From positions 1,632 through 65,631 of the forward strand of contig JAHJGY010000070.1 in assembly GCA_018824115.1 (NCBI GenBank): a stretch of 64,000 nt of DNA, read 5' to 3'. A program made the translations under genes and the position numbers. Under the pieces are notes generated by a model. The model made no database searches and was not told where the DNA came from. It saw only the letters and a list, made by a program, of their open reading frames with translations. Below, piece by piece: positions 6,491 to 52,558 of this stretch; the stretch's first letter is position 1, and the number at the start of each line of letters is the position of its first letter. The DNA comes from Patescibacteria group bacterium (GTDB taxonomy: Bacteria; Patescibacteriota; 4484-211).

Positions 6491-8245
6491 ATGAGCAAGA
6501 ATCATACTTGGCTGGCCATTGGGCTGGCAGTAGCTCTCCTTGTTTGTCTGGCCGTGACTGTTACGGCCCAAACGAATGAGGGTGTCGTGGCATCGTGTTT
6601 GGTGCGCGTGGGTGAAGTGGACTATACCAACGTGCAGGATGCTGTGGACGCAGCCCGGCCGGGCGATGTAGTTAAAGTCGCCGGTTATTGTGCCGGGTCT
6701 GGGGTGTCAACCCAGTATTACATTACGGTTGACACTATGTTCCCCGAGCAGGAGGCAGTGGTTCTGCGGGCGTCCCCTGCAGTCCAAGTTATTAGAGGGC
6801 AAGGAGGGCGATTCAAGACCCTGTTTGCCGAGTCTGGGGTCGAGGTAAGTCATGCGGTAGTGATCGCCAAGTCCATTACCATCCGTGGCGGTTACGACCC
6901 GTCGGACTGGGAACAGTCCGACCCCGATGTCCACCCGGCCACGATAGATGCTGGGGGCGAAGCCTACGGCATTTACGTTACCGACGGTAACGTTGTCGTG
7001 GAGAATCTCCGGGTGACCGGTGGTTATGGGTGGAACGGCGCGGGAATGCGGGTTGAGGGCTGGTCCGCGAACTTGGTGATGAGCAACTGCGTGATTTTCG
7101 ATAACCATGCCCATTACGACGGCGGCGGACTGTACATCCTGGAAGATGATGAGGCTGAGTTGATCGGTAATACCATCTACTCCAACACCGCTGGCTACAG
7201 TGGCGGTGGGATGTCTCTCGTTCGGTCCAACGCTATGGTGATCAGTAACACCATCCGCTATAACCGTGCTGGCAATGGCGGTGGCGGGCTTGAGATGTGG
7301 TACAGCGATGCCGTGCTCCGCGGCAACGAGATCTTTTCTAACACATCTCTTGCTGATGGGGGAGGGGTGCTTCTCTACAATAGTGATGCTTTAGTGGAGG
7401 GTAATCGTATCCAGGGGAACGTTGCCGACCCCACGGAGTATGGGAAGGGTGGTGGCCTGGACCTATATGGTAGCGATGCCACCCTGCGTGGGAACGCGAT
7501 CGTTTCCAACGTTGCCTGGCTTGCAGGCGCTCTATACGTCTACGATAGTGTACCTGTATTCGAAAACAATTACCTTTGCAACCAGGCGACGATCACAACC
7601 TCCCATGAGACGTATCCCCACTGGCTTGTCCCGGTTGCCCTTGAACTTTCCCCGCTGACCGAGACAATCCTGGCGGGCAACAGCCAAGCCTATAGCGCAC
7701 GGGCTTTGGGTATCCATGACAACACCTGGTGCGCACGTGGAGTCGCCTACTCCACACCTGCAGAAGCAGGTGGCGTCTGGGAGAACGACATCTACGTTTC
7801 CGAAAATGCCGGGACCTGGACGGTCATCGGCAAGTACGAGGAGGTGAGCGGTTACGCCGAGCTGGTTGTGAAACCAATCCCCACCCACCTCGTCTACCTG
7901 CCGCTGGTGGCCCGGAACTATGAGGGACCTAGACTCGAGGCGGATCCGACTAGCCTCGAGTTTGTAGTTTCGGCAGCGGAGACGGAGGAGGCGGATGTGA
8001 CACTCCGCAATGTGGGGTCTGAGCTATTGGAGATTTGGCTCAGGAATAAGGAGGAAATCCCCGCCTGGTTTGATATAGATGCTCCGGGCACGACCTTGAT
8101 CCTGCCCGGAAGTTGGACGACCATGCAGGTTAGAGTTGATTCTGCCGGTATGGAAGTTGGCGAGTATAGATACACGCTTGCCATTGAGTCCAACGGGGGT
8201 AATGCGAGTGTCGCAGTGACGATGATTGTCGTCGCGACGCCCTAA
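6491..8245 (+). CDS. Secreted right-handed parallel beta-helix repeat protein (pectate-lyase-fold / adhesin-like)
   Basis: N-terminal signal peptide (MSKNHTWLAIGLAVALLVCLAVTVTAQ). Many repeats of the G-N-x-I/V-x-x-N pattern (GNTIYSNTAGYSGGG, SNTIRYNRAGNGGGG, GNEIFSNTSLADGGG, GNRIQGNV...). The gene is visibly much more GC-rich than its neighbours. Confidence 0.75.
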   Translation: MSKNHTWLAIGLAVALLVCLAVTVTAQTNEGVVASCLVRVGEVDYTNVQDAVDAARPGDVVKVAGYCAGSGVSTQYYITVDTMFPEQEAVVLRASPAVQVIRGQGGRFKTLFAESGVEVSHAVVIAKSITIRGGYDPSDWEQSDPDVHPATIDAGGEAYGIYVTDGNVVVENLRVTGGYGWNGAGMRVEGWSANLVMSNCVIFDNHAHYDGGGLYILEDDEAELIGNTIYSNTAGYSGGGMSLVRSNAMVISNTIRYNRAGNGGGGLEMWYSDAVLRGNEIFSNTSLADGGGVLLYNSDALVEGNRIQGNVADPTEYGKGGGLDLYGSDATLRGNAIVSNVAWLAGALYVYDSVPVFENNYLCNQATITTSHETYPHWLVPVALELSPLTETILAGNSQAYSARALGIHDNTWCARGVAYSTPAEAGGVWENDIYVSENAGTWTVIGKYEEVSGYAELVVKPIPTHLVYLPLVARNYEGPRLEADPTSLEFVVSAAETEEADVTLRNVGSELLEIWLRNKEEIPAWFDIDAPGTTLILPGSWTTMQVRVDSAGMEVGEYRYTLAIESNGGNASVAVTMIVVATP

Positions 8246-22676: not shown

Positions 22677-25646
22677 TTAAATTTGTACCTTATACGCCGG
22701 GCACAATAGTTGATATGAACAGTATTGGCACATTAAACCAATATTGGGTGTAAAGTTGCCTTGTCTTATTTCTTTAACGAGTTCCCCGATTTTCGTTTTG
22801 GTAGTCTGTAGATCATCAGAGTTTCTGGTGGTGGTCAATTTAATGCTTTCTTCGAGAAAAATGAAACTTAGTTTCTGCTTCTCTGGAGGGGTGTTAAGAA
22901 TGTTTGGATCAGCCGCGGCAAGGGAATAGATGCCTAGCTGGAGGTCTTTATCAATTTCTTTTTGTTTTTTTGCTTTTCCCGTTTTGTAGTCGATAATTTC
23001 GATTGTTCCATCTGCTAATTTGTCTACCCGGTCAATCCTGCCAGTGATTTTAATACCACCGATTTTAATTGAAAACGGAAACTCTATCTTATTGACTATT
23101 TGTTTGGGCGAGTAGTGGTTTTGGCAGAAGGTTTTAAGCATCTTTATGCCGGCTTTTTTCTGCCGTGCTTCGTGTTCTTTTGCTTGGTAACCTTCGCTGA
23201 TCCAGTAGGTTTCCAGCAGTTCTTTGAGGGCTTTAAACGCCGAGCTTTGGGAGCTTTTAAAGCTCGACGTTTCTTGCATATGACGCCGATAGAACTCGGC
23301 CAAAGTTCGGTGCATGGATTCCCCAAACGAGAGTGGTGATGTGGGAGGCGTAGGGATTCCGAGTATGTGTTTGTATTTATACTGCTGTGGGCAAACGGAA
23401 TAAGTGTTAATTTGTGAGTAGGATAGTCTGGAGATTCTATGTGTGAGTGGTTTTCCGGCCGGTTCCGCAGCTGGTGTTTCTGGTTGATACCATTTAAACA
23501 GCGAGGTCTGTTGTTGGGTTTTGTTAATGATCCGAAAGGGCTCTAAATTTTCTCCGAGAGTCTCGGTAATAAAAGGGGAGAGTCGTTTGGGACGTTTATT
23601 TTGGTGATAGAATTTAGCTCCACTAAAATATAATTTCTTTTGTGCTCGAGTTATACCGACGTAAAACAAACGACGTTCTTCTGCGATGTGAGGGTTGCTA
23701 CTAGGAAGGGGTTCCTTAATTAGTTGATCGGGGACTGGTATTTGATCTTTGCGTTCACGTGTGGGGAATCGGTCGGTAACGAGGTTAACCATAAAAACGA
23801 CTGGGAATTCTAAGCCCTTTGCCGAGTGGAAGGTAAGAATATTGACGGCGTTGTTATCGCGCCAGTCAATTTCGCTGGCAAGCGGGGATTCGCCCTGGTC
23901 GATAATAAAGCTGAGATATTCAACAAAATGATAGACGTTACTTTCTGGATTTTGTATTTCAAACTTCTTAGCGACATCAAAGAATTTAGAAATGTTTTGG
24001 ATTTCTCGCTGATGCTGTGGTGATTGTGGGTCTTGGTAAGAAACTAATAGGCCGGTGTCCTTCAGGAAGTAATAAAGGATTTGCCCGGGTAGTTCTTGGG
24101 GCACGAGTTTTAAATGCCTGTGAATCATTGAGATGAACTTGCTGATTTTCTGATAAGTGTCTTGTTTTAGATTGGCGATTTCTCTGATGTTTTCCAGTGT
24201 TTCAAATAGGCTAAGATTTTTCTGTTTTGCGTGGCTGATCATGAATGCGATGTCCCGGGTATTTACATTAAAGTGTGTTTTGGTCAACACTCTGTACATG
24301 GCGATGTCGTCTTTAATGTTAGACAGGATTGTTAGGTAGGCAATTAGATCTTTAATTTCCGGTTGGTGAAAAAGCTGGCCCGGGCCAAGAAATTGATAAG
24401 GCAGGCCAGCCTGACTTAATGCTTGAAGGAAGGGGAAAGCATGATTATTGGCTCGGACCAATATTGCAAAGTCTTGATAGCGCAGGCCGTTATTATTCTT
24501 AGTTAATCTCTGGATTTCGCCGATCACGCTTTCTGCTTCTTCCTCTACTTTCTCTTCCCAAATGAGGGTGATGTCGGAACCGTCTCGTTTTGGGACCGCC
24601 CGGAGTTTCTTGTCGATTCTTTCTTGGGTTTCTAATCGATCTGGGTTGTTGTGTTGGATGAAGTGGTAAGCTCGATCTAGTATTATTTGCGGTGACCGAT
24701 AGTTGCGGATCAAGCTAACCAGGCTTGAATTTGGGAAGTGTTTTTGGAAGCTGAGGACATTATAGATTGCCGCTCCCCGCCAGCGGTAAATGCTTTGATC
24801 GTCGTCGCAAACTGCAGTGATATTCTGATCGTCTCCTGCTAGCAGTACGGCGATCTCGTTTTGGATATAGTTGGTATCCTGGAATTCGTCAACAAGGACG
24901 TGTTTAAACTGTTTCTGATATTTGACTAAGATGTTCGAGCGAGTCTTAAAGAGTTTTAGAGTGTAATAGAGGAGATCGGCGAAGTCCATTACACTGTGTT
25001 GGATTTTTAATTCTTGGTATTTCTTATACGCTGTTGCCAGTTCCTCTAACCTCTCAATTTGCAGCCTTTCCTCATTATTCTGGCTACCGGTTTCTGGTTC
25101 TGCGTTCTGGGCTACAGTTTTCCGGTTCTTGAGGCTCCTGATGTATTTCGAGTATTCCTCCGGTGTGATATTTTCGTTTCTCAGTCGACTAAAATGGGTG
25201 ATTAATCCCGAGATGAATTTGGCGGGGTTACCGAGGGGTCGATAGTATTGTAGGTTGAACTCGAATATATGTTTTTTTATAAAGAGATAGTTTTCGGCCT
25301 GGCTTAATATTCGGAAAACGGGGTCGAGGCCGATATGGATAGCTTCTTGGCGCAAGACTCGTTCACAGAAGGAATGGAAAGTAGAAATCCAGGTTTGTAC
25401 ATAACCAATGGGCAAGGCAATGTCTACTCTTTCTTCCATCTCCTGCGCTGCCTTTTCTGTAAAAGTTAAGGCGAGTATTTCTGAGGGTTTGGCACTTTTT
25501 TGTTCGATGAGCCATTTGATGCGTTCGGTGATTACGGTGGTTTTCCCGGTTCCTGCGCCAGCAATGATGAGGAGAGGGCGCTGAGAATGAGTGATGGCAG
25601 CATGCTGTTCGGGGTTGAGTTTAAACTTAGCTTTATCGTCGTGCAT
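22677..25646 (-). CDS. UvrD/PcrA-like helicase fused to a C-terminal PD-(D/E)XK nuclease with a Cys cluster (AddA/Cas4-like helicase-nuclease)
   Basis: Walker A GAGTGKTT; UvrD motifs (VDEFQDTN, helicase C-terminus). C-terminal GRIDRVD...DYKTG and QYCSYQLLCP Fe-S-type cysteines. Confidence 0.85.
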   Translation of the reverse strand: MHDDKAKFKLNPEQHAAITHSQRPLLIIAGAGTGKTTVITERIKWLIEQKSAKPSEILALTFTEKAAQEMEERVDIALPIGYVQTWISTFHSFCERVLRQEAIHIGLDPVFRILSQAENYLFIKKHIFEFNLQYYRPLGNPAKFISGLITHFSRLRNENITPEEYSKYIRSLKNRKTVAQNAEPETGSQNNEERLQIERLEELATAYKKYQELKIQHSVMDFADLLYYTLKLFKTRSNILVKYQKQFKHVLVDEFQDTNYIQNEIAVLLAGDDQNITAVCDDDQSIYRWRGAAIYNVLSFQKHFPNSSLVSLIRNYRSPQIILDRAYHFIQHNNPDRLETQERIDKKLRAVPKRDGSDITLIWEEKVEEEAESVIGEIQRLTKNNNGLRYQDFAILVRANNHAFPFLQALSQAGLPYQFLGPGQLFHQPEIKDLIAYLTILSNIKDDIAMYRVLTKTHFNVNTRDIAFMISHAKQKNLSLFETLENIREIANLKQDTYQKISKFISMIHRHLKLVPQELPGQILYYFLKDTGLLVSYQDPQSPQHQREIQNISKFFDVAKKFEIQNPESNVYHFVEYLSFIIDQGESPLASEIDWRDNNAVNILTFHSAKGLEFPVVFMVNLVTDRFPTRERKDQIPVPDQLIKEPLPSSNPHIAEERRLFYVGITRAQKKLYFSGAKFYHQNKRPKRLSPFITETLGENLEPFRIINKTQQQTSLFKWYQPETPAAEPAGKPLTHRISRLSYSQINTYSVCPQQYKYKHILGIPTPPTSPLSFGESMHRTLAEFYRRHMQETSSFKSSQSSAFKALKELLETYWISEGYQAKEHEARQKKAGIKMLKTFCQNHYSPKQIVNKIEFPFSIKIGGIKITGRIDRVDKLADGTIEIIDYKTGKAKKQKEIDKDLQLGIYSLAAADPNILNTPPEKQKLSFIFLEESIKLTTTRNSDDLQTTKTKIGELVKEIRQGNFTPNIGLMCQYCSYQLLCPAYKVQI

Positions 25647-28403: not shown

Positions 28404-29105
28404 TCAATTCCTTTGTGCGCTTCCCATCTTCGCATTGTACCGCTCTTTCGCCAGTTGGTCAACCGCTTGTTTGGCGGTATCAAACGAAAAACCGCGACTA
28501 GCTAAGTAGCGTACAGCTTTTGCTTGATACTGTCTATGATCTAAATCTTGCCGAGATAACAGGCGGTGGTGTTGCAGGGCGGCGAGAGCAAGGCTAACTT
28601 CCGTGGTATTGCCCTCTGCACCGAGGGTTTTTTCGATAATATCATCGGCAACACCCTTTTGCTTGAGTTCGGATCGTATTGCCCAGACACCCTTTGGTTT
28701 ACGGCCGGTTTGTCGTTGTTCTAACCACCACTGCCCAAAACTGGTATCGTTAATTAAATCCAGCTCTTCTAATTGAGTTAGCGTTTTTTCGATAATTTGG
28801 ATTTCTTCCTCATGGGTTTGATAAAGTTGTTTTTGTTGGCTGGTTTTTTTCTTAAGATATTGAGAGACTTCTTTTCTTGATCGGGGGCGGTATTCTAGAT
28901 ACCGGAAGGCTAATTCTAGCAACTTGTCTTTTTTTTCGTACGTTAATAGTTGTTCTAATTGGTCTGGAGAAAGTTCTTGTCCGGCTTGATATTTTTTCTC
29001 GATTAAAGTGTTTTCGTTGACACTGGCGATGTATTTCCCATTAACGAATAGATTGTAGCGATGAAGGTTGCGCTTTTGCTGTTTGATGGCGGTGATTGTA
29101 GACAA
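28404..29105 (-). CDS. recX: Recombination regulator RecX
   Basis: Three-helix repeat architecture; located immediately downstream of recA. Confidence 0.75.
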   Translation of the reverse strand: MSTITAIKQQKRNLHRYNLFVNGKYIASVNENTLIEKKYQAGQELSPDQLEQLLTYEKKDKLLELAFRYLEYRPRSRKEVSQYLKKKTSQQKQLYQTHEEEIQIIEKTLTQLEELDLINDTSFGQWWLEQRQTGRKPKGVWAIRSELKQKGVADDIIEKTLGAEGNTTEVSLALAALQHHRLLSRQDLDHRQYQAKAVRYLASRGFSFDTAKQAVDQLAKERYNAKMGSAQRN

Positions 29106-29119
29106 ATTAGCTGTAAAAT

Positions 29120-30130
29120 TTATTTAGGCGGGGGAGCTTGTACTTGGTTCCTATTCAGAATTGCTTGTTTGATTTCCTCCGATATCTTAGGATTTTCTTT
29201 TAAGAATAGCCTCGCGGCTTCTTTCCCCTGGCCTATTTTTTGATCTTGATAAGAATACCAAGCACCAGATTTGTCGACAATGCCCAATTCGGATCCTAGA
29301 TCAAGTAAGCTCCCTTCCTGTGATATTCCTTCGTTAAACATGACATCGAACTCGGCTGTTCTAAAGGGTGGAGCGACTTTATTCTTGACAATTTTTGTGC
29401 GTACGCGGGAACCGATAACTTCCTCGCCTTGTTTAAGAGACTGGATGCGCCTGATGTCTATCCTAACCGAGGAGTAGAATTTGAGGGCGCGGCCGCCTGG
29501 GGTTACTTCCGGATTGCCAAACATAATCCCGATTTTCATTCTTAATTGGTTGGTGAAAATGACAGCAGTGTTGGATTTGTTGATTGCGCCTGCTAATTTT
29601 CTTAATGCTTGTGACATTAACCTTGCCTGTAGGCCGATATGGTGGTCCCCCATTTCTCCTTCGATTTCTGCTCGGGGGACTAATGCGGCCACTGAATCGA
29701 TGGCAACGACATCGATTCCGCCCGATCTAACCAGTGTTTCGACGATTTCCAGGGCTTGTTCGCCAGAATCTGGTTGCGATAATAATAGTTCGTCGATGTT
29801 AACACCAATGTTGCGGGAATATGTTGGGTCTAGGGCGTGTTCGGCATCAACGATGGCGGCTATACCTCCTTGTTTCTGCGCTTCGGCAACGATGTGCTGG
29901 ATTAATGTGCTTTTTCCAGAGGCTTCTGGGCCAAAAATCTCGGTAATTCGTCCACGCGGGATTCCTCCAACTCCCAGAGCGAGATCTAAAGCAATACATC
30001 CGGTAGGGATAATGGAAATACCCTCGGCGATGCTTTCCTGCCCTAACCGCATAATTGATCCTTTACCGAACTGCTTTTCAATTTGCTCAATGGCCAGTTT
30101 AACAGCCTCCGATTTTTGATCTTTGGGCAT
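29120..30130 (-). CDS. recA: Recombinase RecA
   Basis: Walker [11 protein letters not shown]; the highly conserved RecA core ([31 protein letters not shown]). Confidence 0.95.
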
Positions 30131-37123: not shown

Positions 37124-37546
37124 TGTTGAGGTGGGAGAGAGGTCTATCGCCCCGACCTTTGGGTCGTGGGAGGAAAGTCCAGACTACATAAGGCAGGGTG
37201 GGCGCTGCAAGGCGTTCGTGGTAACACCGAGTGGGCTAATCCCGAAAGGGAAAAGTCATCTTGAGGGAAACAACCTTCAGGAAGAGCCACAGTGACGTAA
37301 CTAATTTCTAAGTCCTTGTGATATGAAATTAGAGTGAAACGTGCAATCCTCCCTGTAGCAACTTCCGGATGGCACGAGCTCTCGACTTTAAGTCTGCCAG
37401 TCGGCAGACAGGTCGGAGGAGAGGTCGCCTGCCGAGTGCCGAAGACGAAGGCATTAGATAGATGATAGACAGTCTCGACTTTAGGCCTGCCCGTCGGCAG
37501 GCAGGTCGGGATAAACAGAATCTGGCTTACTCCTCTCCCATCATAA
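37124..37546 (+). ncRNA. rnpB: RNase P RNA, bacterial type A
   Basis: P4 5' strand GGGAGGAAAGTCCAGAC...ATAAGGCAGGGTG; 3' conserved ACAGAATCTGGCTTA; P1 pairing between tgaggtgggagagagg and ctcctctcccatca. Confidence 0.8.
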
Positions 37547-37707: not shown

Positions 37708-38196
37708 ATGTCAGTGCACTTCTACCCAAAACTTTTCGACTCCAAACAATTCGAAGATCAAAAAGAGCGTAAAGACAATTTATATGAGCTGGTTATGGAA
37801 TGTACCGACGAGAATTTTGATTTTAATATTGATGACTCGTTCACCGCATTAGCCTACTATCCATCAGCAGACGTACCAGCAAATTTTGCTACTGTTTTGT
37901 CTGAGCAATTAGAACTAGATCTCATTGATCTTGATGATGATTCCCAGCTTGAAGAAGTAAGTAAAACGATCGAAATACTTAACAAAATCGGGTCTGTGGA
38001 AAAGACAAACTTAGATTGGGAAACTTATGAACCATATATTGGATTTATAACACTAGAAGAAAGCATTACCCTCAAGGGTTTTCTCGAGAAATATAATTTT
38101 GATGATGACGTAATTAACAATTATAAACATTTTATGTTGGAGATTTTACGTAAAGCTATTGAAAAGAATAAGGGGATTATTATTCTAGCATTTTAA
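37708..38196 (+). CDS. Hypothetical highly acidic protein (162 aa, D/E-rich)
   Basis: ORF; about a quarter of residues are Asp/Glu; no recognisable family. Confidence 0.5.
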   Translation: MSVHFYPKLFDSKQFEDQKERKDNLYELVMECTDENFDFNIDDSFTALAYYPSADVPANFATVLSEQLELDLIDLDDDSQLEEVSKTIEILNKIGSVEKTNLDWETYEPYIGFITLEESITLKGFLEKYNFDDDVINNYKHFMLEILRKAIEKNKGIIILAF

Positions 38197-38352
38197 TCCA
38201 GCTTCCTATACTTTTTACTTTGTAGAGTACACCCTATCTAAGTTTTCTAAGGACGGATGTTCTAAAAACCCATTAATGAAAGGACGATCCTTCCGTCCTC
38301 CGTTCCCCCATTCAACGCGGCGAGCCCAGGATTTGCCGTCACATGGCCCTTG

Positions 38353-40611
38353 TCAAACACTAGGTGTTTGGTTAACAAATTCTTTGAGGTATCTACCTGT
38401 ATGGGAGTTGTTACTATTACAAATATCCTCTGGTGTTCCTTGCGCAACAATTCGACCACCTTTATCTCCACCCCCTGGCCCTAAGTCAATAATCCAGTCC
38501 GCTTGCCGGATTACGTCTAAGTTGTGTTCAACAATAAGTACTGTGTTGCCATTATCCACTAACTTATTTAATAGCCTCATTAATTTATCGAGATCTGCGA
38601 AGTGGAGACCCGAAGTTGGTTCATCTAGAATATAAAACTCATTTTCCTTCTGAAGCCTACTTGCAAGTTTAAGTCTTTGAGACTCGCCACCCGAAAGGGT
38701 GTCTAAGGTTTGTCCCATTTCAATATAATCGAGCCCAACATTAATTAATAAGTCCATTGCGTCTATAATTTTTTTGTCTTCAAAAAATCCCTTTACTTCC
38801 CGTGCCGTCATTTCTAAGATTTGTGCGATGTTTCTACCCTTATGTCTGTATCTGAGAACTTTTTCTTTATATCTAGTGCCGCCACACTTGTCACAGCGTA
38901 TCTTCACATTACCTAAAAAGTTCATATCCATGTTAATGTAGCCAACACCCTTGCAATTCGCACATCCACCCTTTGAGTTAAAACTAAATAAACCTACGCT
39001 CATATTCGTACTTTTGGCAAATATTTTTCTTATTTCATCAAATGCACCAATATATGTGGCAATGCAACCCCTTTTGGTGTTGCCAATTTGCTTTTGATCC
39101 ATAGCCGTTATCCTTTCACCGTGTTGAGCAATAATTTCTTCAACCAAAGAGCTTTTACCCGACCCTGATACTCCAGTTAGTGCTACCAATACTCCGCAGG
39201 GGATTTTCACATTCAGATTTTTCAGGTTGTGCTTTGTTGCGTTGACAATTTTTAAATGATCTATGGGTGTTCTAACTTTATCTTTTAAATCCTTTCTTTC
39301 ACTATTTACTAAATACTTTGCTGTTACGGATTTAGGGTTGTTGACAATCTCATTTAGTACTCCTTGAGCAATAACCCTTCCCCCCTCCTTGCCGCCCCCG
39401 GGTCCAATTTCAACAATGTGATCCGAGCTTTTTATTATTGCCTCATCATGTTCAACCACCAATATCGTGTTGCTGTTCTTGCATAAACTTTTTAAATTAT
39501 TAACCACCCCAGCGACATCTTTGGGGTGAAGGCCGGCCGTAGGTTCATCCAACACATAAATAGTTTCAATTAAATCACAACCTAACTGTCTTGCCATTTT
39601 TACTCGCTGTGCTTCTCCTCCCGATAAAGTATCTGCCGATCGGTTAAGAGATAAATATCCGACACCTGCGTTAACAAGATGTTCTAATTGCTCTGTTAAA
39701 CGAGGCTTTATTACCTCGGCATGGGGATGACCTACATTCTTTATAAATTCTAAGCAGTCAGTTAATGGCATATTTGCAACCTCACCAATACTTTTGCCAT
39801 TTACCCTTACCGATAATGCTTGGGCGTTGAGCTTTCCACCCTTACAAGCGGGGCAGTCAATAAAGTCAAAATATTTTAAATCACTTTTGGAGGGGCCCCG
39901 ATGCACCTTAGTGTTTCTGTGCATTATCCGATAAACAATTCCCTGGTATGTCCACTTATTTACTATAAATGCGCCCTGGCTATCCAACAAAACCGGTTTG
40001 GCATTTAACAACTTATCAAGTTCTTCTTGGCAATAATCTTTTATCTTTTTATCCATGTCAAAGTAACCACTTGATCCGATGATGCTCCACTGTCGTCCGC
40101 CTACGTACCACTCACCAGGTTTCAATGCTCCTTCATTTAAACTCTTATTTACATCAAGTATCTTATCTAGATTTACTTCAACAGATCTTCCTAATCCCTT
40201 ACATTGTGGACATGCTCCAAATGGATGATTAAAGGAGAAGTAGGTTGAATCCATCGTAGGTAAACCCACCCTAGAGAAGAGTAGCCTCAAATAGTTATAA
40301 CTTTCGGTCAATGTCCCAACTGTTGATCGGGGATTACTGCGAACTCTGGCTTGGCTAATTTTTACAGTTGATGAAATTCCAGATATTGAATCGATATCTG
40401 GCTTGTTATTTTTGCTTAGATATCTTCTGGCATAAGTACTTAATGACTCGAAATACTGCCTTTCGCTTTCACGGGCAATAATGTCGAAGGCTATTGTTGA
40501 CTTGCCGGAACCCGACACGCCCACAAAACAGACAACCCGGTTTCTAGGGATAACGACATCAATGTTTTTCAGGTTGTTCTCTCTGGCCCCTTTAATATTA
40601 ATAGTGTTCAT
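38353..40611 (-). CDS. UvrA-like tandem ABC ATPase lacking the UvrB-binding domain (UvrA class II/III; DrrC/UvrA2-like)
   Basis: Two Walker A motifs (GVSGSGKST, GVSGSGKSS), two LSGGE signatures, and Zn modules (FSFNHPFGACPQCKGLG, CANCKGVG, CDKCGG). The ~140-aa segment found in canonical UvrA between RLLF(A/S)RVG and the FSFN zinc module is absent; 752 aa. Confidence 0.85.
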   Translation of the reverse strand: MNTINIKGARENNLKNIDVVIPRNRVVCFVGVSGSGKSTIAFDIIARESERQYFESLSTYARRYLSKNNKPDIDSISGISSTVKISQARVRSNPRSTVGTLTESYNYLRLLFSRVGLPTMDSTYFSFNHPFGACPQCKGLGRSVEVNLDKILDVNKSLNEGALKPGEWYVGGRQWSIIGSSGYFDMDKKIKDYCQEELDKLLNAKPVLLDSQGAFIVNKWTYQGIVYRIMHRNTKVHRGPSKSDLKYFDFIDCPACKGGKLNAQALSVRVNGKSIGEVANMPLTDCLEFIKNVGHPHAEVIKPRLTEQLEHLVNAGVGYLSLNRSADTLSGGEAQRVKMARQLGCDLIETIYVLDEPTAGLHPKDVAGVVNNLKSLCKNSNTILVVEHDEAIIKSSDHIVEIGPGGGKEGGRVIAQGVLNEIVNNPKSVTAKYLVNSERKDLKDKVRTPIDHLKIVNATKHNLKNLNVKIPCGVLVALTGVSGSGKSSLVEEIIAQHGERITAMDQKQIGNTKRGCIATYIGAFDEIRKIFAKSTNMSVGLFSFNSKGGCANCKGVGYINMDMNFLGNVKIRCDKCGGTRYKEKVLRYRHKGRNIAQILEMTAREVKGFFEDKKIIDAMDLLINVGLDYIEMGQTLDTLSGGESQRLKLASRLQKENEFYILDEPTSGLHFADLDKLMRLLNKLVDNGNTVLIVEHNLDVIRQADWIIDLGPGGGDKGGRIVAQGTPEDICNSNNSHTGRYLKEFVNQTPSV

Positions 40612-40675
40612 AAGATTGACATTTCTCTACCACGGGACTATAATAAGCTATTACGTTACGTCATAGTCAAGTATC
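40612..40675. promoter_or_regulatory. Overlapping divergent promoters: plus-strand TTGACA-17-TATAAT for the MerR gene; minus-strand TTGACT-19-TATTAT (MerR-type long spacer) for the UvrA-like gene, with an imperfect dyad CTATTACGT-T-ACGTCATAG in the spacer
   Basis: Coordinates read directly: TTGACA 40616-40621, TATAAT 40639-40644; minus-strand -10 at 40640-40645, -35 at 40665-40670, spacer 40646-40664 (19 nt). Confidence 0.5.
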
Positions 40676-41473
40676 ATGAATAATTACTTAACAGCGGGTG
40701 AATTAGCCAAGCTTGCAAGTACCACTAAGCGAACTATTCTCTTTTATGATGAGAAAAACATTCTTGAACCCGTGGAAGTTAATAATAAGGGTTATAGATA
40801 TTATTTAGAAGATCAGGTGCTTGACTACCAAAAAATACTTCTCCTTACTACCCTAGGTGTTTCATTGGATGAAATTAGGCTTCATCTCAAAAATAAGGGT
40901 AATCTGACTCAACTCTTTAACGAAAAAAAATCTCAAATAAGAAATCAAATAAAGAAGCTTGAATTTAATTTAGATAGTCTCGAGAAATTCTCAAACAACA
41001 TAAATAACAATGGGACAATGGTCAACCCGGAAATAAAGACAATTGAACCATTTGATGTTTATTACATTGAAAAAATCGGACCCTACGTTAAAATCGCGGA
41101 GTACTGCAAAGAGTTTATCGAGATGTTTGATAATAGGGGGAAAGAGTTTACAACTCTAGCCATCTTTGAGAACCCTACCTATCAACCCAAGAAAAGCAAG
41201 ATTAAAATTGGAGCGCTTGTAAAAAAGGACATGAAGATAGGTGAGAAACATAAAGATACTGTTAAACGCATGACTTTTAGCCCCGGAAAAGTTATAACCC
41301 ACACCTACAATGGTTCAGGAAGTTTACTTTCCTTATTCTGGAAAGAACTTGAAAAATACTGCATGATAAAAAAAATAAAAATTAGAAAAGATGTTCCTGA
41401 TTTTGAAATATACCGCAAAGTCAGCGAAGATCCAGTGGAGCAGTTTTTTGAAATTTATCTTCCTATCCGTTAA
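40676..41473 (+). CDS. MerR-family transcriptional regulator with C-terminal GyrI-like effector-binding domain (BmrR-like)
   Basis: N-terminal MerR HTH (LTAGELAKLASTTKRTILFYDEKNIL), coiled-coil linker, and a C-terminal GyrI-like domain ending ...PDFEIYRKV...EIYLPI. Confidence 0.8.
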   Translation: MNNYLTAGELAKLASTTKRTILFYDEKNILEPVEVNNKGYRYYLEDQVLDYQKILLLTTLGVSLDEIRLHLKNKGNLTQLFNEKKSQIRNQIKKLEFNLDSLEKFSNNINNNGTMVNPEIKTIEPFDVYYIEKIGPYVKIAEYCKEFIEMFDNRGKEFTTLAIFENPTYQPKKSKIKIGALVKKDMKIGEKHKDTVKRMTFSPGKVITHTYNGSGSLLSLFWKELEKYCMIKKIKIRKDVPDFEIYRKVSEDPVEQFFEIYLPIR

Positions 41474-51590: not shown

Positions 51591-51885
51591 AAAAGAAACC
51601 GGAGAATATGACTAGCCATATTCCGGCGATCGCCAGGATGCATCCGGCGAGTATGAGTACCCTCCGGAGTTTACGTCCCTGGCGCAGATGGTGGAATCCT
51701 CGATCCTCAAATCCTAGAGAGATTCCCTCATCGATCGCTGCCTTTAGGCCTAGGACTAGTCCTAAGCCTAACAGGGCGAGCCCGCCACCGGCGGCGATAC
51801 CGAGTTCTTGGTTGTCGGTGACAGCTGTTATCAGCGCCCCGGCGATTAGGCCGAGGATCAGCCAAAGAGCCGCTAGCTTAGACAT
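51589..51885 (-). CDS. Small membrane protein (2-3 TM, Gly/Ala/Leu-rich), GC-rich
   Basis: ORF; start trimmed to the internal M (MSKLAALWLILG) to give an 8-nt overlap with the upstream CSD gene. Confidence 0.45.
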   Translation of the reverse strand: MSKLAALWLILGLIAGALITAVTDNQELGIAAGGGLALLGLGLVLGLKAAIDEGISLGFEDRGFHHLRQGRKLRRVLILAGCILAIAGIWLVIFSGFF

Positions 51886-52558
51886 CGTTACCTCCCTTGA
51901 AAAGCACTTCGAGTGCCCGCTCGACCCAGAGGTCGATGTTGCGGACATCTAGCCTTTCTTTCCCCCCTAGAATTACTGGGGGATAGGGTTTTCCGTCATC
52001 GACCACTCGCCACGGGGCGGGGTACTCGGCGGGGTGGAAGAACCAGTAAGCGGCGCCGTTTTCCAGGACGCGCTCATCAGTTCTCCAGATTTCCCCAGAC
52101 TTGGCCGTCCAAGCCGTGCTTCCGACGGGGTATGGCTTGGCTGCCACCCAATGATCTCCTTTGCGGAAAATGAGATAGTCGTCATTTTCCATCATAAGCT
52201 CCCACCCGCGGTGAGCAAAAGCTGCCTTGATACCTTTGACAATTTCTTCTTCTCCGAGAGCGAGGGCGATTTCACTAGCTCTGTGGGGTGGGACCTCGAT
52301 AGTTCCGTTTGCATCACGGGGGAGGTTTCTCGGCCTCACATTGTGAGCAACGGCCCCATTCCGGCCATGGCCAACTGTGAAGGTCACTTGCGTGCCCTTC
52401 AGGTTATCTTCGGCGACAATTGCTCGCACACCACCGATGTGGTGGTGGTTTACGAAGATATCGGGCCCATCATCTTGGCTGATGAACCCGTAACCGGATT
52501 TGCCCCGGCGGTCGGGGCGGTCCCTTGTGAAAAAAACCTTAATGGTTCCGGTAGGCAT
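51878..52558 (-). CDS. Cold-shock-domain fusion protein (N-terminal CSD + ~160-aa uncharacterised C-terminal domain), GC-rich
   Basis: GTIKVFFTRDRPDRRGKSGYGFISQDDGPDIFVNHHHI resembles the CspA RNP1/RNP2 fold (KGFGFI...VFVH). Confidence 0.65.
   Translation of the reverse strand: MPTGTIKVFFTRDRPDRRGKSGYGFISQDDGPDIFVNHHHIGGVRAIVAEDNLKGTQVTFTVGHGRNGAVAHNVRPRNLPRDANGTIEVPPHRASEIALALGEEEIVKGIKAAFAHRGWELMMENDDYLIFRKGDHWVAAKPYPVGSTAWTAKSGEIWRTDERVLENGAAYWFFHPAEYPAPWRVVDDGKPYPPVILGGKERLDVRNIDLWVERALEVLFKGGNDV

What the first reader, a model, noticed from the sequence alone, without database searches (positions are those of the whole stretch)
38353..41473. Divergent MerR/GyrI-like sensor and a UvrB-binding-domain-less UvrA paralog: a candidate module for sensing and resisting DNA-binding xenobiotics in a reduced genome
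The 752-aa minus-strand protein shows every hallmark of UvrA: two ABC modules with Walker A GVSGSGKST and GVSGSGKSS, two LSGGE signatures, and CxxC zinc modules. Compared with canonical UvrA (E. coli, recalled from memory), the segment between RLLFARVG and the FSFNxPxGACPxC zinc module that forms the UvrB-binding domain is absent. The overall length matches class II/III UvrA-like proteins such as DrrC and Ecm16, which act without UvrB and protect against intercalating or DNA-binding drugs. The divergently transcribed neighbour combines a MerR HTH with a C-terminal GyrI-like small-molecule-binding domain (...EIYLPI), the BmrR/TipA-type architecture of ligand-sensing activators. Pairing a ligand-sensing MerR with a non-NER UvrA paralog appears unusual, particularly in a streamlined genome, and would suggest inducible protection of DNA from a specific environmental or host-derived compound.
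Basis: partly seen in the sequence, partly recalled or inferred. Interest (0 to 1): 0.72.

Follow-up and report, generated by a model that had tools for sequence, protein, structure and literature searches.

The report
Drug-sensor switch controlling a DNA-guarding ATPase
A tiny-genome groundwater bacterium, like many of its relatives, carries a conserved two-gene cassette in which a drug-sensing MerR-type switch appears to turn on a UvrA-like DNA-scanning ATPase that cannot work in normal excision repair, most likely to protect DNA from DNA-binding toxins.

Summary
ORF 38353-40611 (-) encodes a 752-aa UvrA-family protein with both ABC modules and Zn modules 2 and 3. It lacks the roughly 140-residue UvrB-binding domain and Zn module 1, which is the class II UvrA architecture. 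ORF 40676-41473 (+) encodes a BmrR/EcmrR-type regulator: MerR HTH, long coiled coil, GyrI-like domain.

Three results are new. First, the pair is a conserved cassette in Microgenomates-type CPR bacteria. It was present in 11 of 13 independent loci, always divergent, and always with unrelated flanking genes. Second, the 64-bp intergenic region holds a textbook MerR-type promoter for the UvrA-like gene: TTGACT, a 19-nt spacer containing the dyad TATRACGT-N-ACGTWATA, then TATTAT. This promoter overlaps a perfect 17-nt-spacer promoter for the regulator. The 19-nt geometry was verified in 11 loci. Third, the dyad occurs only once in the 64-kb window.

The regulatory coupling is therefore strongly supported. 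The function, ligand-induced protection of DNA from a DNA-binding compound without UvrB or UvrC, is inferred by analogy with Ecm16 and DrrC.

A PADLOC match to the MADS defence system was shown to be non-specific. Whether the genome also has canonical uvrA, uvrB and uvrC could not be tested. No paper describing this pairing was found.

The parts
38353..40611 (-). Class II UvrA-like ATPase, 752 aa. It has two ABC modules, Zn modules 2 and 3, and an insertion domain. It has no UvrB-binding domain and no Zn module 1.
   Evidence: ORF; NCBIfam and Pfam; PDB alignments; alignment and tree; more than 120 CPR ortholog clusters at 64-81% identity; invariant catalytic motifs.
40249..40266 (-). Deletion junction (residues about 116-121, ...SRVGLP|TMDSTYFSFN...). 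In canonical UvrA, Zn module 1 and the UvrB-binding domain (about 140-155 aa) sit here.
   Evidence: query 120 joins to 2r6f chain residue 279. One search shows the same boundary in CPR and Firmicutes short UvrAs, while actinobacterial short forms keep about 27 more residues.
39856..40200 (-). Insertion domain (residues about 138-252), flanked by the Zn2 cysteines C134/C137 and C253/C256. It is the least conserved folded region of the protein.
   Evidence: Aligned to the UvrA insertion domain. Mean pairwise identity is 61%, against 68-86% for the other folded regions. PF17755 is recorded for some orthologs but not for this protein.
40676..41473 (+). BmrR/EcmrR-type regulator, 265 aa: MerR HTH (residues 6-73), coiled-coil helix (77-112), GyrI-like ligand-binding domain (117-265).
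   Evidence: Pfam; PDB sequence hits to EcmrR and BmrR; AF2 model at pLDDT 89.8; Foldseek hits to BrlR, BmrR, EcmrR, STM3175, CTR107, CtaZ and SbmC; 305 homologs, almost all about 265 aa and from CPR.
40640..40670 (-). MerR-type promoter of the UvrA-like gene: -35 TTGACT (40670..40665), 19-nt spacer (40664..40646), -10 TATTAT (40645..40640).
   Evidence: Read. The same geometry (-35, exactly 19 nt, TATTAT or TATAAT) is seen in L004, L006, L034-L038 and L041-L043.
40648..40666 (.). Operator dyad TATGACGT-A-ACGTAATA (family consensus TATAACGT-N-ACGTTATA), lying in the spacer and touching the -35.
   Evidence: Conserved columns. It is the only site in the 64-kb window, against 0.07 expected by chance. 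In the fetched loci it occurs only upstream of the regulator.
40616..40644 (+). Regulator's own promoter, TTGACA-17 nt-TATAAT. Its -10 overlaps the -10 of the UvrA-like promoter, and its predicted start region lies under the operator, which would give autorepression.
   Evidence: 12 of 12 consensus match. The -35 and -10 are conserved in the orthologous regions.

Best explanation
This is a self-contained, ligand-inducible two-gene cassette. The BmrR-type regulator binds as a dimer to the dyad inside the 19-nt spacer of the UvrA-like promoter. Without ligand, it holds that promoter inactive and represses its own overlapping promoter. When a small molecule occupies the GyrI-like pocket, the regulator untwists and shortens the spacer, which is the MerR 'activation by distortion' mechanism, and switches on the UvrA-like gene. 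The ligand is probably a planar, hydrophobic or cationic DNA-binding compound. The UvrA-like product is a class II UvrA that cannot recruit UvrB (or Mfd). It scans duplex DNA as a dimer, preferentially binds drug-laden or distorted DNA through its insertion domain and Zn3 region, and uses ATP hydrolysis to dislodge or neutralise the compound, as proposed for Ecm16 and DrrC. What is shown here: the domain architectures, the missing UvrB-binding domain, the conserved pairing, the promoter and operator geometry, and the single operator site. What is inferred: ligand dependence, the identity of the ligand, and the drug-displacement activity.
For: Architecture: UvrA family with the UvrB-binding domain and Zn1 deleted; Walker, signature, Zn2 and Zn3 residues are invariant across 23 orthologs. 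Regulator: MerR_1 and GyrI-like both above Pfam cutoffs, a confident model, and top structural matches to the multidrug sensors BmrR, EcmrR and BrlR and the albicidin-binding STM3175. Coupling: divergent adjacency in 9 of 10 loci reached from the UvrA side and 2 of 3 reached from the regulator side, with different flanking genes in every locus; 23 identical 'longest contig' lengths are shared between the two top-120 homolog lists. Promoter: TTGACT-19 nt-TATTAT with a conserved dyad in 11 loci, and a perfect 17-nt-spacer promoter for the regulator. The dyad is unique in the window. MerR regulators with GyrI-like domains activate 19-bp-spacer promoters on drug binding (PMC8113463). Ecm16 protects against echinomycin without UvrA, B, C or D, and needs its ATPase and its insertion domain (PMC9328131; PMC10192343). 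Support for a xenobiotic role of the sensor: in L041 the same operator-promoter drives a short-chain dehydrogenase instead, and in L042 an MFS transporter follows the regulator. The GyrI-like domain (63-72% identity) and the insertion domain (61%) are well conserved across the clade, consistent with a shared ligand and substrate.
Against: There is no experimental data for any member of this clade. The ligand is unknown and cannot be predicted from sequence. By raw score, the protein is closer to canonical UvrAs (651 bits) than to Ecm16 (571 bits) or D. radiodurans UvrA2 (529 bits). Its grouping with other short UvrAs rests on a simple NJ tree. No biosynthetic gene cluster or efflux gene accompanies the cassette in the window, so the source of any toxin is unknown. 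Class II UvrAs in non-producers have unclear roles (PMC9328131). The AF2 model of the UvrA-like protein is poor (pTM 0.40) and adds nothing. Promoter assignments assume sigma-70-like recognition in CPR bacteria.
Confidence: 0.6

Rival explanations
1. The cassette is a stress-inducible DNA-damage tolerance or repair module, not a drug-displacement one. The regulator senses a general signal, such as an electrophile, an oxidant or a metabolite. The UvrA-like protein recognises lesions and hands them to an unknown non-UvrB partner, or acts as a lesion-binding shield.
For: Class II UvrAs of D. radiodurans, P. putida and Xanthomonas contribute weakly to UV tolerance or mutagenesis (PMC9328131). The protein scores highest against canonical damage-sensing UvrAs. 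recA, recX and a UvrD/PD-(D/E)XK helicase-nuclease lie in the same window. The Ecm16 authors leave open the existence of conserved partner proteins.
Against: GyrI-like effector domains in MerR regulators are small-molecule, multidrug binders, not redox or metal sensors, and no cysteine-based metal or redox site is apparent. No candidate partner gene is conserved next to the cassette. In L041 and L042 the sensor is associated with an SDR and an MFS transporter, which are typical xenobiotic outputs.
Confidence: 0.25
2. It is the organism's ordinary NER UvrA, working with UvrB and UvrC despite its shortened form.
For: NCBI annotates it as 'excinuclease ABC subunit UvrA'. TIGR00630 is passed.
Against: The UvrB-binding domain and Zn1 are missing, and PF17760 is absent. 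The stricter equivalog PRK00349 is failed. Canonical CPR UvrAs are 930-950 aa and carry PF17760. Ecm16, which has the same architecture, cannot complement uvrA. No uvrB or uvrC is found in the window or in the 14-kb contexts of relatives. A housekeeping repair gene under a ligand-gated MerR promoter would be odd.
Confidence: 0.03
3. It is a reduced MADS-like anti-phage defence module, with mad1 as regulator, mad2 as methyltransferase and mad3 as ATPase.
For: PADLOC hits: UvrA-like to mad3 at 263.9 bits, regulator to mad1 at 31.3 bits, neighbouring methyltransferase to mad2 at 35.7 bits.
Against: A canonical 944-aa UvrA hits mad3 even better, at 303.7 bits, so the match reflects family-level ATPase similarity. 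The mad1 and mad2 hits are weak and cover only a generic HTH and a generic SAM-methyltransferase segment. The methyltransferase is not conserved next to the cassette. MADS detection requires MAD6, MAD7 and MAD8 as mandatory components, and MAD1-5 are only accessory (preprint 10.1101/2023.03.30.534895). No MAD6 or MAD7 equivalents are present.
Confidence: 0.02
4. The regulator is itself the main resistance factor, sequestering the drug as AlbA and STM3175 do. On this view the UvrA-like gene is a secondary or unrelated neighbour.
For: The model matches the albicidin-binding MerR-like protein STM3175 and the drug-binding GyrI-like proteins CtaZ and CTR107. A GyrI-like hydrolase (lin2189) is also among the hits.
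Against: The 19-nt-spacer promoter and its dyad point at the UvrA-like gene and are conserved with it. Sequestration and regulation are not mutually exclusive, so this complements the main model more than it replaces it.
Confidence: 0.1

Closest known systems
Class II(a) UvrA-like resistance proteins: Ecm16 (echinomycin), DrrC (daunorubicin), D. radiodurans UvrA2
   Same: Two-ABC UvrA fold. No UvrB-binding domain and no Zn module 1. The insertion domain and Zn2 and Zn3 are retained. Length is about 750-840 aa (PMC9328131; PMC10192343).
   Different: Only about 35-40% identical. It forms a separate CPR clade that is sister to Firmicutes short UvrAs, with a cleaner deletion boundary than the actinobacterial proteins. 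It is not inside a biosynthetic gene cluster. The organism is an ultra-small CPR bacterium, not an antibiotic producer. It is controlled by a dedicated divergent MerR/GyrI-like regulator, which is not described for Ecm16 or DrrC in the papers read.
BmrR (B. subtilis) and EcmrR (E. coli), multidrug-sensing MerR regulators
   Same: MerR HTH, antiparallel coiled coil and GyrI-like ligand domain. The target promoter has a 19-bp spacer and a pseudo-palindrome between the -35 and -10 (PMC8113463; PMC7722741).
   Different: About 20% identity. The output gene is a DNA-binding UvrA-like ATPase rather than an efflux pump. The operator sequence (TATAACGT-N-ACGTTATA) is different. The ligand is unknown.
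The merR/merT divergent promoter arrangement of Tn21 and Tn501
   Same: Regulator and target are transcribed divergently from overlapping promoters. The target has a 19-bp spacer with a dyad operator. The regulator's promoter overlaps the operator, which implies autorepression (PMC11049809 abstract).
   Different: The effector domain is a GyrI-like drug pocket rather than a Cys-based metal site, and the target is not a metal-detoxification operon.
AlbA and STM3175, MerR-like albicidin resistance proteins
   Same: A MerR-type N-terminus fused to a drug-binding domain, responding to a DNA-targeting antibiotic. It is a structural hit.
   Different: AlbA and STM3175 neutralise the drug by binding it and regulate themselves. 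Here a separate effector gene is the conserved target.

Membership tests
Class II(a) UvrA (UvrA-like, UvrB-independent) | Two ABC ATPase modules with intact Walker A/B and signature motifs | tested here: met
   The motifs are read, ABC_tran and UvrA models match, and the motifs are invariant in 23 orthologs.
Class II(a) UvrA (UvrA-like, UvrB-independent) | Absence of the UvrB-binding domain | tested here: met
   One search shows a gap of about 138 residues relative to 2r6f. In one search there are 40 residues where canonical proteins have 180-195. PF17760 does not hit.
Class II(a) UvrA (UvrA-like, UvrB-independent) | Absence of Zn module 1 (definition quoted in PMC9328131) | tested here: met
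   There is no CxxC after ...SRVGLP, whereas some canonical sequences (L011, L020) show ...HCPxC there. Only the Zn2 and Zn3 cysteine pairs are present.
Class II(a) UvrA (UvrA-like, UvrB-independent) | Insertion domain retained between the Zn2 cysteine pairs | tested here: met
   Residues about 138-252 align to the UvrA insertion domain. PF17755 is below threshold in this protein but is recorded in several orthologs.
Class II(a) UvrA (UvrA-like, UvrB-independent) | Groups phylogenetically with short UvrAs rather than with class I | tested here: inconclusive
   An NJ tree groups the CPR, Firmicutes and actinobacterial short forms apart from six canonical UvrAs. The method is simple, and raw scores favour canonical UvrAs. 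Assignment to IIa or IIb in the sense of Marszalkowska 2013 was not determined.
Class II(a) UvrA (UvrA-like, UvrB-independent) | Confers resistance to a DNA-binding drug, dependent on its ATPase and independent of UvrB and UvrC | not testable with these tools
   This needs heterologous expression and MIC assays.
Producer self-resistance UvrA-like genes (DrrC/Ecm16 type) | Located in a biosynthetic gene cluster for a DNA-binding natural product | tested here: not met
   The flanks are RNase P RNA, FemAB, a methyltransferase and YifB in the window, and unrelated housekeeping or miscellaneous genes in the other loci. No PKS or NRPS genes are present.
Canonical (class I) UvrA of NER | UvrB-binding domain and Zn1 present; passes the equivalog cutoffs | tested here: not met
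   The domain is missing. PRK00349 scores 804.7 against a cutoff of 1147. TIGR00630 is passed narrowly.
Canonical (class I) UvrA of NER | Co-occurrence with uvrB and uvrC in the genome | not testable with these tools
   None are found in the 64-kb window or in the fetched CPR loci L001-L038 (tblastn). The remaining contigs of GCA_018814785.1 could not be accessed.
BmrR-type MerR regulators (MerR HTH + GyrI-like) | N-terminal MerR winged HTH | tested here: met
   MerR_1 scores 46.6 bits and MerR scores 35.6 bits. PDB hits to EcmrR and BmrR cover residues 3-115.
BmrR-type MerR regulators (MerR HTH + GyrI-like) | Long dimerisation helix followed by a GyrI-like effector domain | tested here: met
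   The confident model has a helix at residues 77-112. GyrI-like scores 37.8 bits against a cutoff of 26. Foldseek matches BmrR, BrlR and EcmrR full-length, and CTR107, CtaZ and SbmC over the C-terminal domain.
BmrR-type MerR regulators (MerR HTH + GyrI-like) | Target promoter with a 19-20 bp spacer containing a (pseudo)palindromic operator | tested here: met
   TTGACT-19-TATTAT with the dyad is seen in the window and 10 other loci. The defining feature is taken from PMC8113463.
BmrR-type MerR regulators (MerR HTH + GyrI-like) | Ligand-dependent activation by DNA distortion | not testable with these tools
   This needs EMSA, in vitro transcription or reporter assays.
MADS anti-phage system | MAD6, MAD7 and MAD8 mandatory components in one operon | tested here: not met
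   Only mad1, mad2, mad3 and mad8 give hits, and all are domain-level. A canonical UvrA scores higher on mad3 and mad8. The requirement is stated in 10.1101/2023.03.30.534895.

The most novel reading that the evidence does not exclude
Microgenomates-type CPR bacteria may have kept, through extreme genome reduction, a dedicated sensor-effector cassette against one specific DNA-binding metabolite made by their hosts or neighbours. The class II UvrA could then be the only UvrA-family protein in genomes that have lost classical UvrABC repair. In that case the MerR/GyrI-like sensor is a ready-made biosensor whose inducer would reveal both the natural substrate of non-producer class II UvrAs and a chemical interaction that shapes the CPR episymbiotic lifestyle.
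Probability: 0.25. Interest if true: 0.75.

Novelty: new variant of a known kind. Interest (0 to 1): 0.6.

Why it matters
The role of class II UvrA proteins outside antibiotic producers is an acknowledged open question (PMC9328131). In this clade, the gene is wired to a ligand-gated MerR/GyrI-like switch with a clean, conserved operator-promoter. That makes the question directly testable: identifying the inducer identifies the likely substrate. It also shows that ultra-reduced CPR genomes conserve a specific xenobiotic-response circuit, which hints at chemical pressure from DNA-binding metabolites in their habitats or from their hosts. The regulator and promoter pair could also serve as a compact biosensor for DNA-binding natural products.

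Tried and rejected
1. MADS defence system. The PADLOC hits were rejected after the control showed that a canonical UvrA scores higher on mad3, and because the mandatory MAD6 and MAD7 are absent.

2. Structure of the UvrA-like protein. The AF2 model was poor (pLDDT 67, pTM 0.40). The Foldseek hits only reconfirm family membership, with RMSD around 31 Å, so the model was not used for domain arguments.

3. Canonical NER in the same lineage. tblastn with E. coli UvrB and UvrC and with a UvrB-binding domain found nothing in the window or the CPR loci. The third homolog search used a Patescibacterial canonical UvrA (L011) and returned only Moranbacteria/Parcubacteria-type proteins, with no contig matches to the cassette genomes. 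Literature searches were uninformative. The question stays open.

4. A metagenome scan with the regulator found no confirmed relatives.

5. Mobile-element hallmarks around the compositional island. No flanking att-like repeats or tRNA were found. The repeats that were found belong to an RNase P RNA.

6. MerR neighbours of non-CPR short UvrAs. There is only a short MerR-like ORF 2 kb away, behind another gene, in L007, and nothing in L008, L033, L009 or L010. The pairing therefore looks specific to CPR.

7. The repeat finder did not report the operator as an inverted repeat, because the arms of 8 nt are below its sensitivity. The dyad was read directly and by pattern search.


Full report
**Observation.** The quoted motifs are all present: GVSGSGKST and GVSGSGKSS, two LSGGE signatures, and four CxxC pairs. 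The window comes from NCBI assembly GCA_018814785.1, contig JAHIZE010000040.1, named 'Patescibacteria group bacterium'. The same gene order appears in two further independent assemblies.

**The UvrA-like protein.** NCBIfam places it in the UvrA family. TIGR00630 scores 775.7 bits against a cutoff of 729.8, but the protein fails the stricter PRK00349 model (804.7 against 1147). phmmer against PDB sequences aligns residues 1-120 to Geobacillus UvrA chain residues 21-140, and residues 119-747 to chain residues 279-957. About 138 residues are skipped, and these are the UvrB-binding domain with Zn module 1. Pfam PF17760, the UvrA interaction domain, gives no hit, although every canonical CPR UvrA carries it. 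In a MAFFT alignment, the CPR proteins and three Firmicutes short UvrAs share the same junction (...SR[VI]G[LFY]P | xxDSxxFSFN...). They have 40 residues where six canonical UvrAs have 180-195. Two actinobacterial short UvrAs keep about 27 extra residues. The insertion domain, between the Zn2 cysteines C134/C137 and C253/C256, is present by alignment. This is the class II(a) architecture as defined in PMC9328131 and seen in the Ecm16 crystal structure (PMC10192343). The AF2 model was too poor to add anything (pTM 0.40).

**The regulator.** Pfam MerR_1 (46.6 bits) and GyrI-like (37.8 bits, cutoff 26) both pass. The best PDB sequence hits are EcmrR and BmrR. The AF2 model is confident (pLDDT 89.8). 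It shows a winged HTH, a 36-residue helix (77-112) and a two-lobed beta/alpha domain. Foldseek returns BrlR, BmrR, EcmrR and the albicidin-resistance protein STM3175 over the full length. Over the C-terminal domain it returns the GyrI-like drug binders CTR107 (rhodamine), CtaZ (closthioamide) and SbmC.

**Distribution and linkage.** The short UvrA is not a one-off. More than 120 clusters of 740-755 aa at 64-81% identity were listed, from Roizman-, Beckwith-, Gottesman- and Amesbacteria and unnamed Patescibacteria. The regulator has 305 homologs. The top 120 are almost all 261-266 aa at 61-77% identity and come from the same lineages. Comparing the two lists, 23 'longest contig' lengths are identical, for example 75139, 709729, 307295, 164927, 86978 and 74871.

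Direct inspection confirms the linkage. From the UvrA side, the regulator is divergently adjacent in 9 of 10 loci: the window, L004, L006, L029 and L034-L038, but not L005. From the regulator side, a 742-743-aa UvrA-like gene is divergently adjacent in L042 and L043, but not in L041. Flanking genes differ in every locus. The window's methyltransferase and 162-aa ORF are not conserved. The conserved unit is therefore exactly two genes. Non-CPR short UvrAs from Clostridium, Bacilli, Arthrobacter and Paeniglutamicibacter lack such a neighbour.

**Promoter and operator.** Read in the UvrA direction, the intergenic region is TTGACT, then ATGACGTAACGTAATAGCT (19 nt), then TATTAT. The -35 is at 40670..40665 and the -10 at 40645..40640. 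The spacer holds the dyad TATGACGT-A-ACGTAATA, whose family consensus is TATAACGT-N-ACGTTATA. The same arrangement is found in L004, L006 and L034-L038 and in L041-L043: a TTGAnn -35, exactly 19 nt with the dyad, and TATTAT or TATAAT. In L029 the dyad and -10 are conserved, but I did not inspect its -35.

On the other strand, a perfect TTGACA-17-TATAAT (40616-40644) serves the regulator. Its -10 overlaps the other -10 by five bases, and its predicted start region lies under the dyad. The dyad pattern occurs once in the 64-kb window, against 0.07 expected. In all fetched loci it occurs only at this position.

A suboptimal 19-20-bp spacer with a pseudo-palindrome between the -35 and -10 is the defining target of MerR-family activators, including the GyrI-like multidrug sensors BmrR and EcmrR (PMC8113463; PMC7722741). 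Divergent overlapping promoters reproduce the merR/merT logic. This makes the regulatory link the best-supported part of the model.

**Function.** The effector role is inferred by analogy. Ecm16 binds echinomycin-loaded DNA more tightly than free DNA. It needs its ATPase and its own insertion domain, and it protects E. coli lacking UvrA, UvrB, UvrC or UvrD, but it cannot replace UvrA in UV repair. In the CPR family, the catalytic and zinc residues are invariant. The insertion domain is the least conserved folded part, at 61%, but that is far more conserved than the 32% between the Ecm16 and DrrC insertion domains. The GyrI-like domain is as conserved as the HTH. These patterns suggest a common ligand and substrate across the clade.

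Two natural variants support a xenobiotic-response role for the sensor. In L041 the UvrA-like gene is gone, but the same 19-nt-spacer operator-promoter now faces a short-chain dehydrogenase with a good ribosome-binding site. In L042 an MFS transporter follows the regulator.

**Rivals.** Plain NER is excluded by the missing UvrB-binding domain. The MADS reading, raised by PADLOC hits to mad3, mad1 and mad2, fails on two counts. A canonical UvrA scores higher on mad3 (303.7 against 263.9 bits), and MADS requires MAD6-8. A generic damage-tolerance role, with a different signal and an unknown partner, remains the main alternative at about 0.25.

**Unresolved.** I could not determine whether this genome also encodes canonical UvrA, UvrB and UvrC. 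None is found in the window or the CPR loci. Canonical UvrA exists in other CPR lineages such as Moranbacteria, but I could not reach the Microgenomates genomes.

**Composition.** The window shows a persistent plus-strand G excess whatever the gene direction: +0.230 ± 0.091 for 23 plus-strand genes and +0.116 ± 0.077 for 20 minus-strand genes. The UvrA-like gene stands at -0.181, about 3.9 SD away. The regulator and the 162-aa ORF have GC of about 0.34, against 0.44 ± 0.04. Together with the variable flanks, this suggests the cassette moves between or within CPR genomes. No integrase, tRNA or att-like repeats flank it here.

**Novelty.** Both components are known kinds. I found no paper combining UvrA, MerR and GyrI-like, and the class II UvrA papers I read do not mention such a regulator. 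I rate this a new variant of a known kind: a class II UvrA placed under a dedicated BmrR-type ligand sensor, conserved across a CPR clade.

Noticed in passing
window 37131-37545 (+): A divergent bacterial RNase P RNA lies in what looked like a 720-bp non-coding gap. RF00010 scores 76.8 bits, below the gathering score of 100, so the default Rfam scan missed it. The E-value is 2e-23 and the full model (1-367) is matched. Two 37-nt hairpin direct repeats that are 89% identical (37380-37416 and 37473-37509) sit as insertions inside it.
   Followed up: partly
window 1-64000; outlier at 37708-41473: The plus strand has a persistent G excess regardless of gene orientation, and cumulative skew rises monotonically. 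This resembles the strand G/C disparity reported for UBA1400 Microgenomates (PMC7143001). The cassette and the 162-aa ORF are compositional outliers in both skew and GC, suggesting recent acquisition or relocation.
   Followed up: partly
L041 4123-5801: The regulator ortholog P0145 keeps the TTGACA-19-TATTAT operator-promoter, but here it faces a short-chain dehydrogenase instead of a UvrA-like gene. An 83-aa ABC_tran fragment 1.1 kb away may be a remnant of the lost gene.
   Followed up: partly
L042 5001-7075: In a Shapirobacteria genome, an MFS transporter gene follows the regulator on the same strand, 48 bp downstream. This adds a BmrR/Bmr-like efflux output to the cassette.
   Followed up: no
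P0145 / L041: NCBI names this regulator's source 'Candidatus Bathyarchaeia archaeon' (846,852-bp contig). The neighbouring genes are the bacterial S6-SSB-S18 cluster and YchF. This points to a mislabelled or chimeric bin rather than an archaeal copy.
   Followed up: no
PADLOC model PDLC04135 (mad3): The mad3 profile scores canonical UvrA at 304 bits and all short UvrAs at 219-264 bits. Isolated mad3 hits are therefore false positives for MADS.
   Followed up: yes
window 6491-8245 (+) and 51878-52558 (-): There are two GC-rich outliers (GC 0.567 and 0.558, against about 0.44 for the window). The first encodes a beta-helix/NosD-like protein with an Ig-like domain. The second was not annotated.
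   Followed up: no
window 22677-25646 (-), 28404-30130 (-): DNA-repair genes lie nearby: a 989-aa UvrD-helicase/PD-(D/E)XK nuclease fusion, plus recA and recX. No uvrB or uvrC is found anywhere in the window.
   Followed up: partly
L005 3427-5787: This is the one CPR short-UvrA locus without the regulator. It is labelled Saccharibacteria, and the 701-aa ORF upstream begins with paired CxxC motifs and was not scanned against any family library. The UvrA-like ORF call there has a probable N-terminal over-extension.
   Followed up: no
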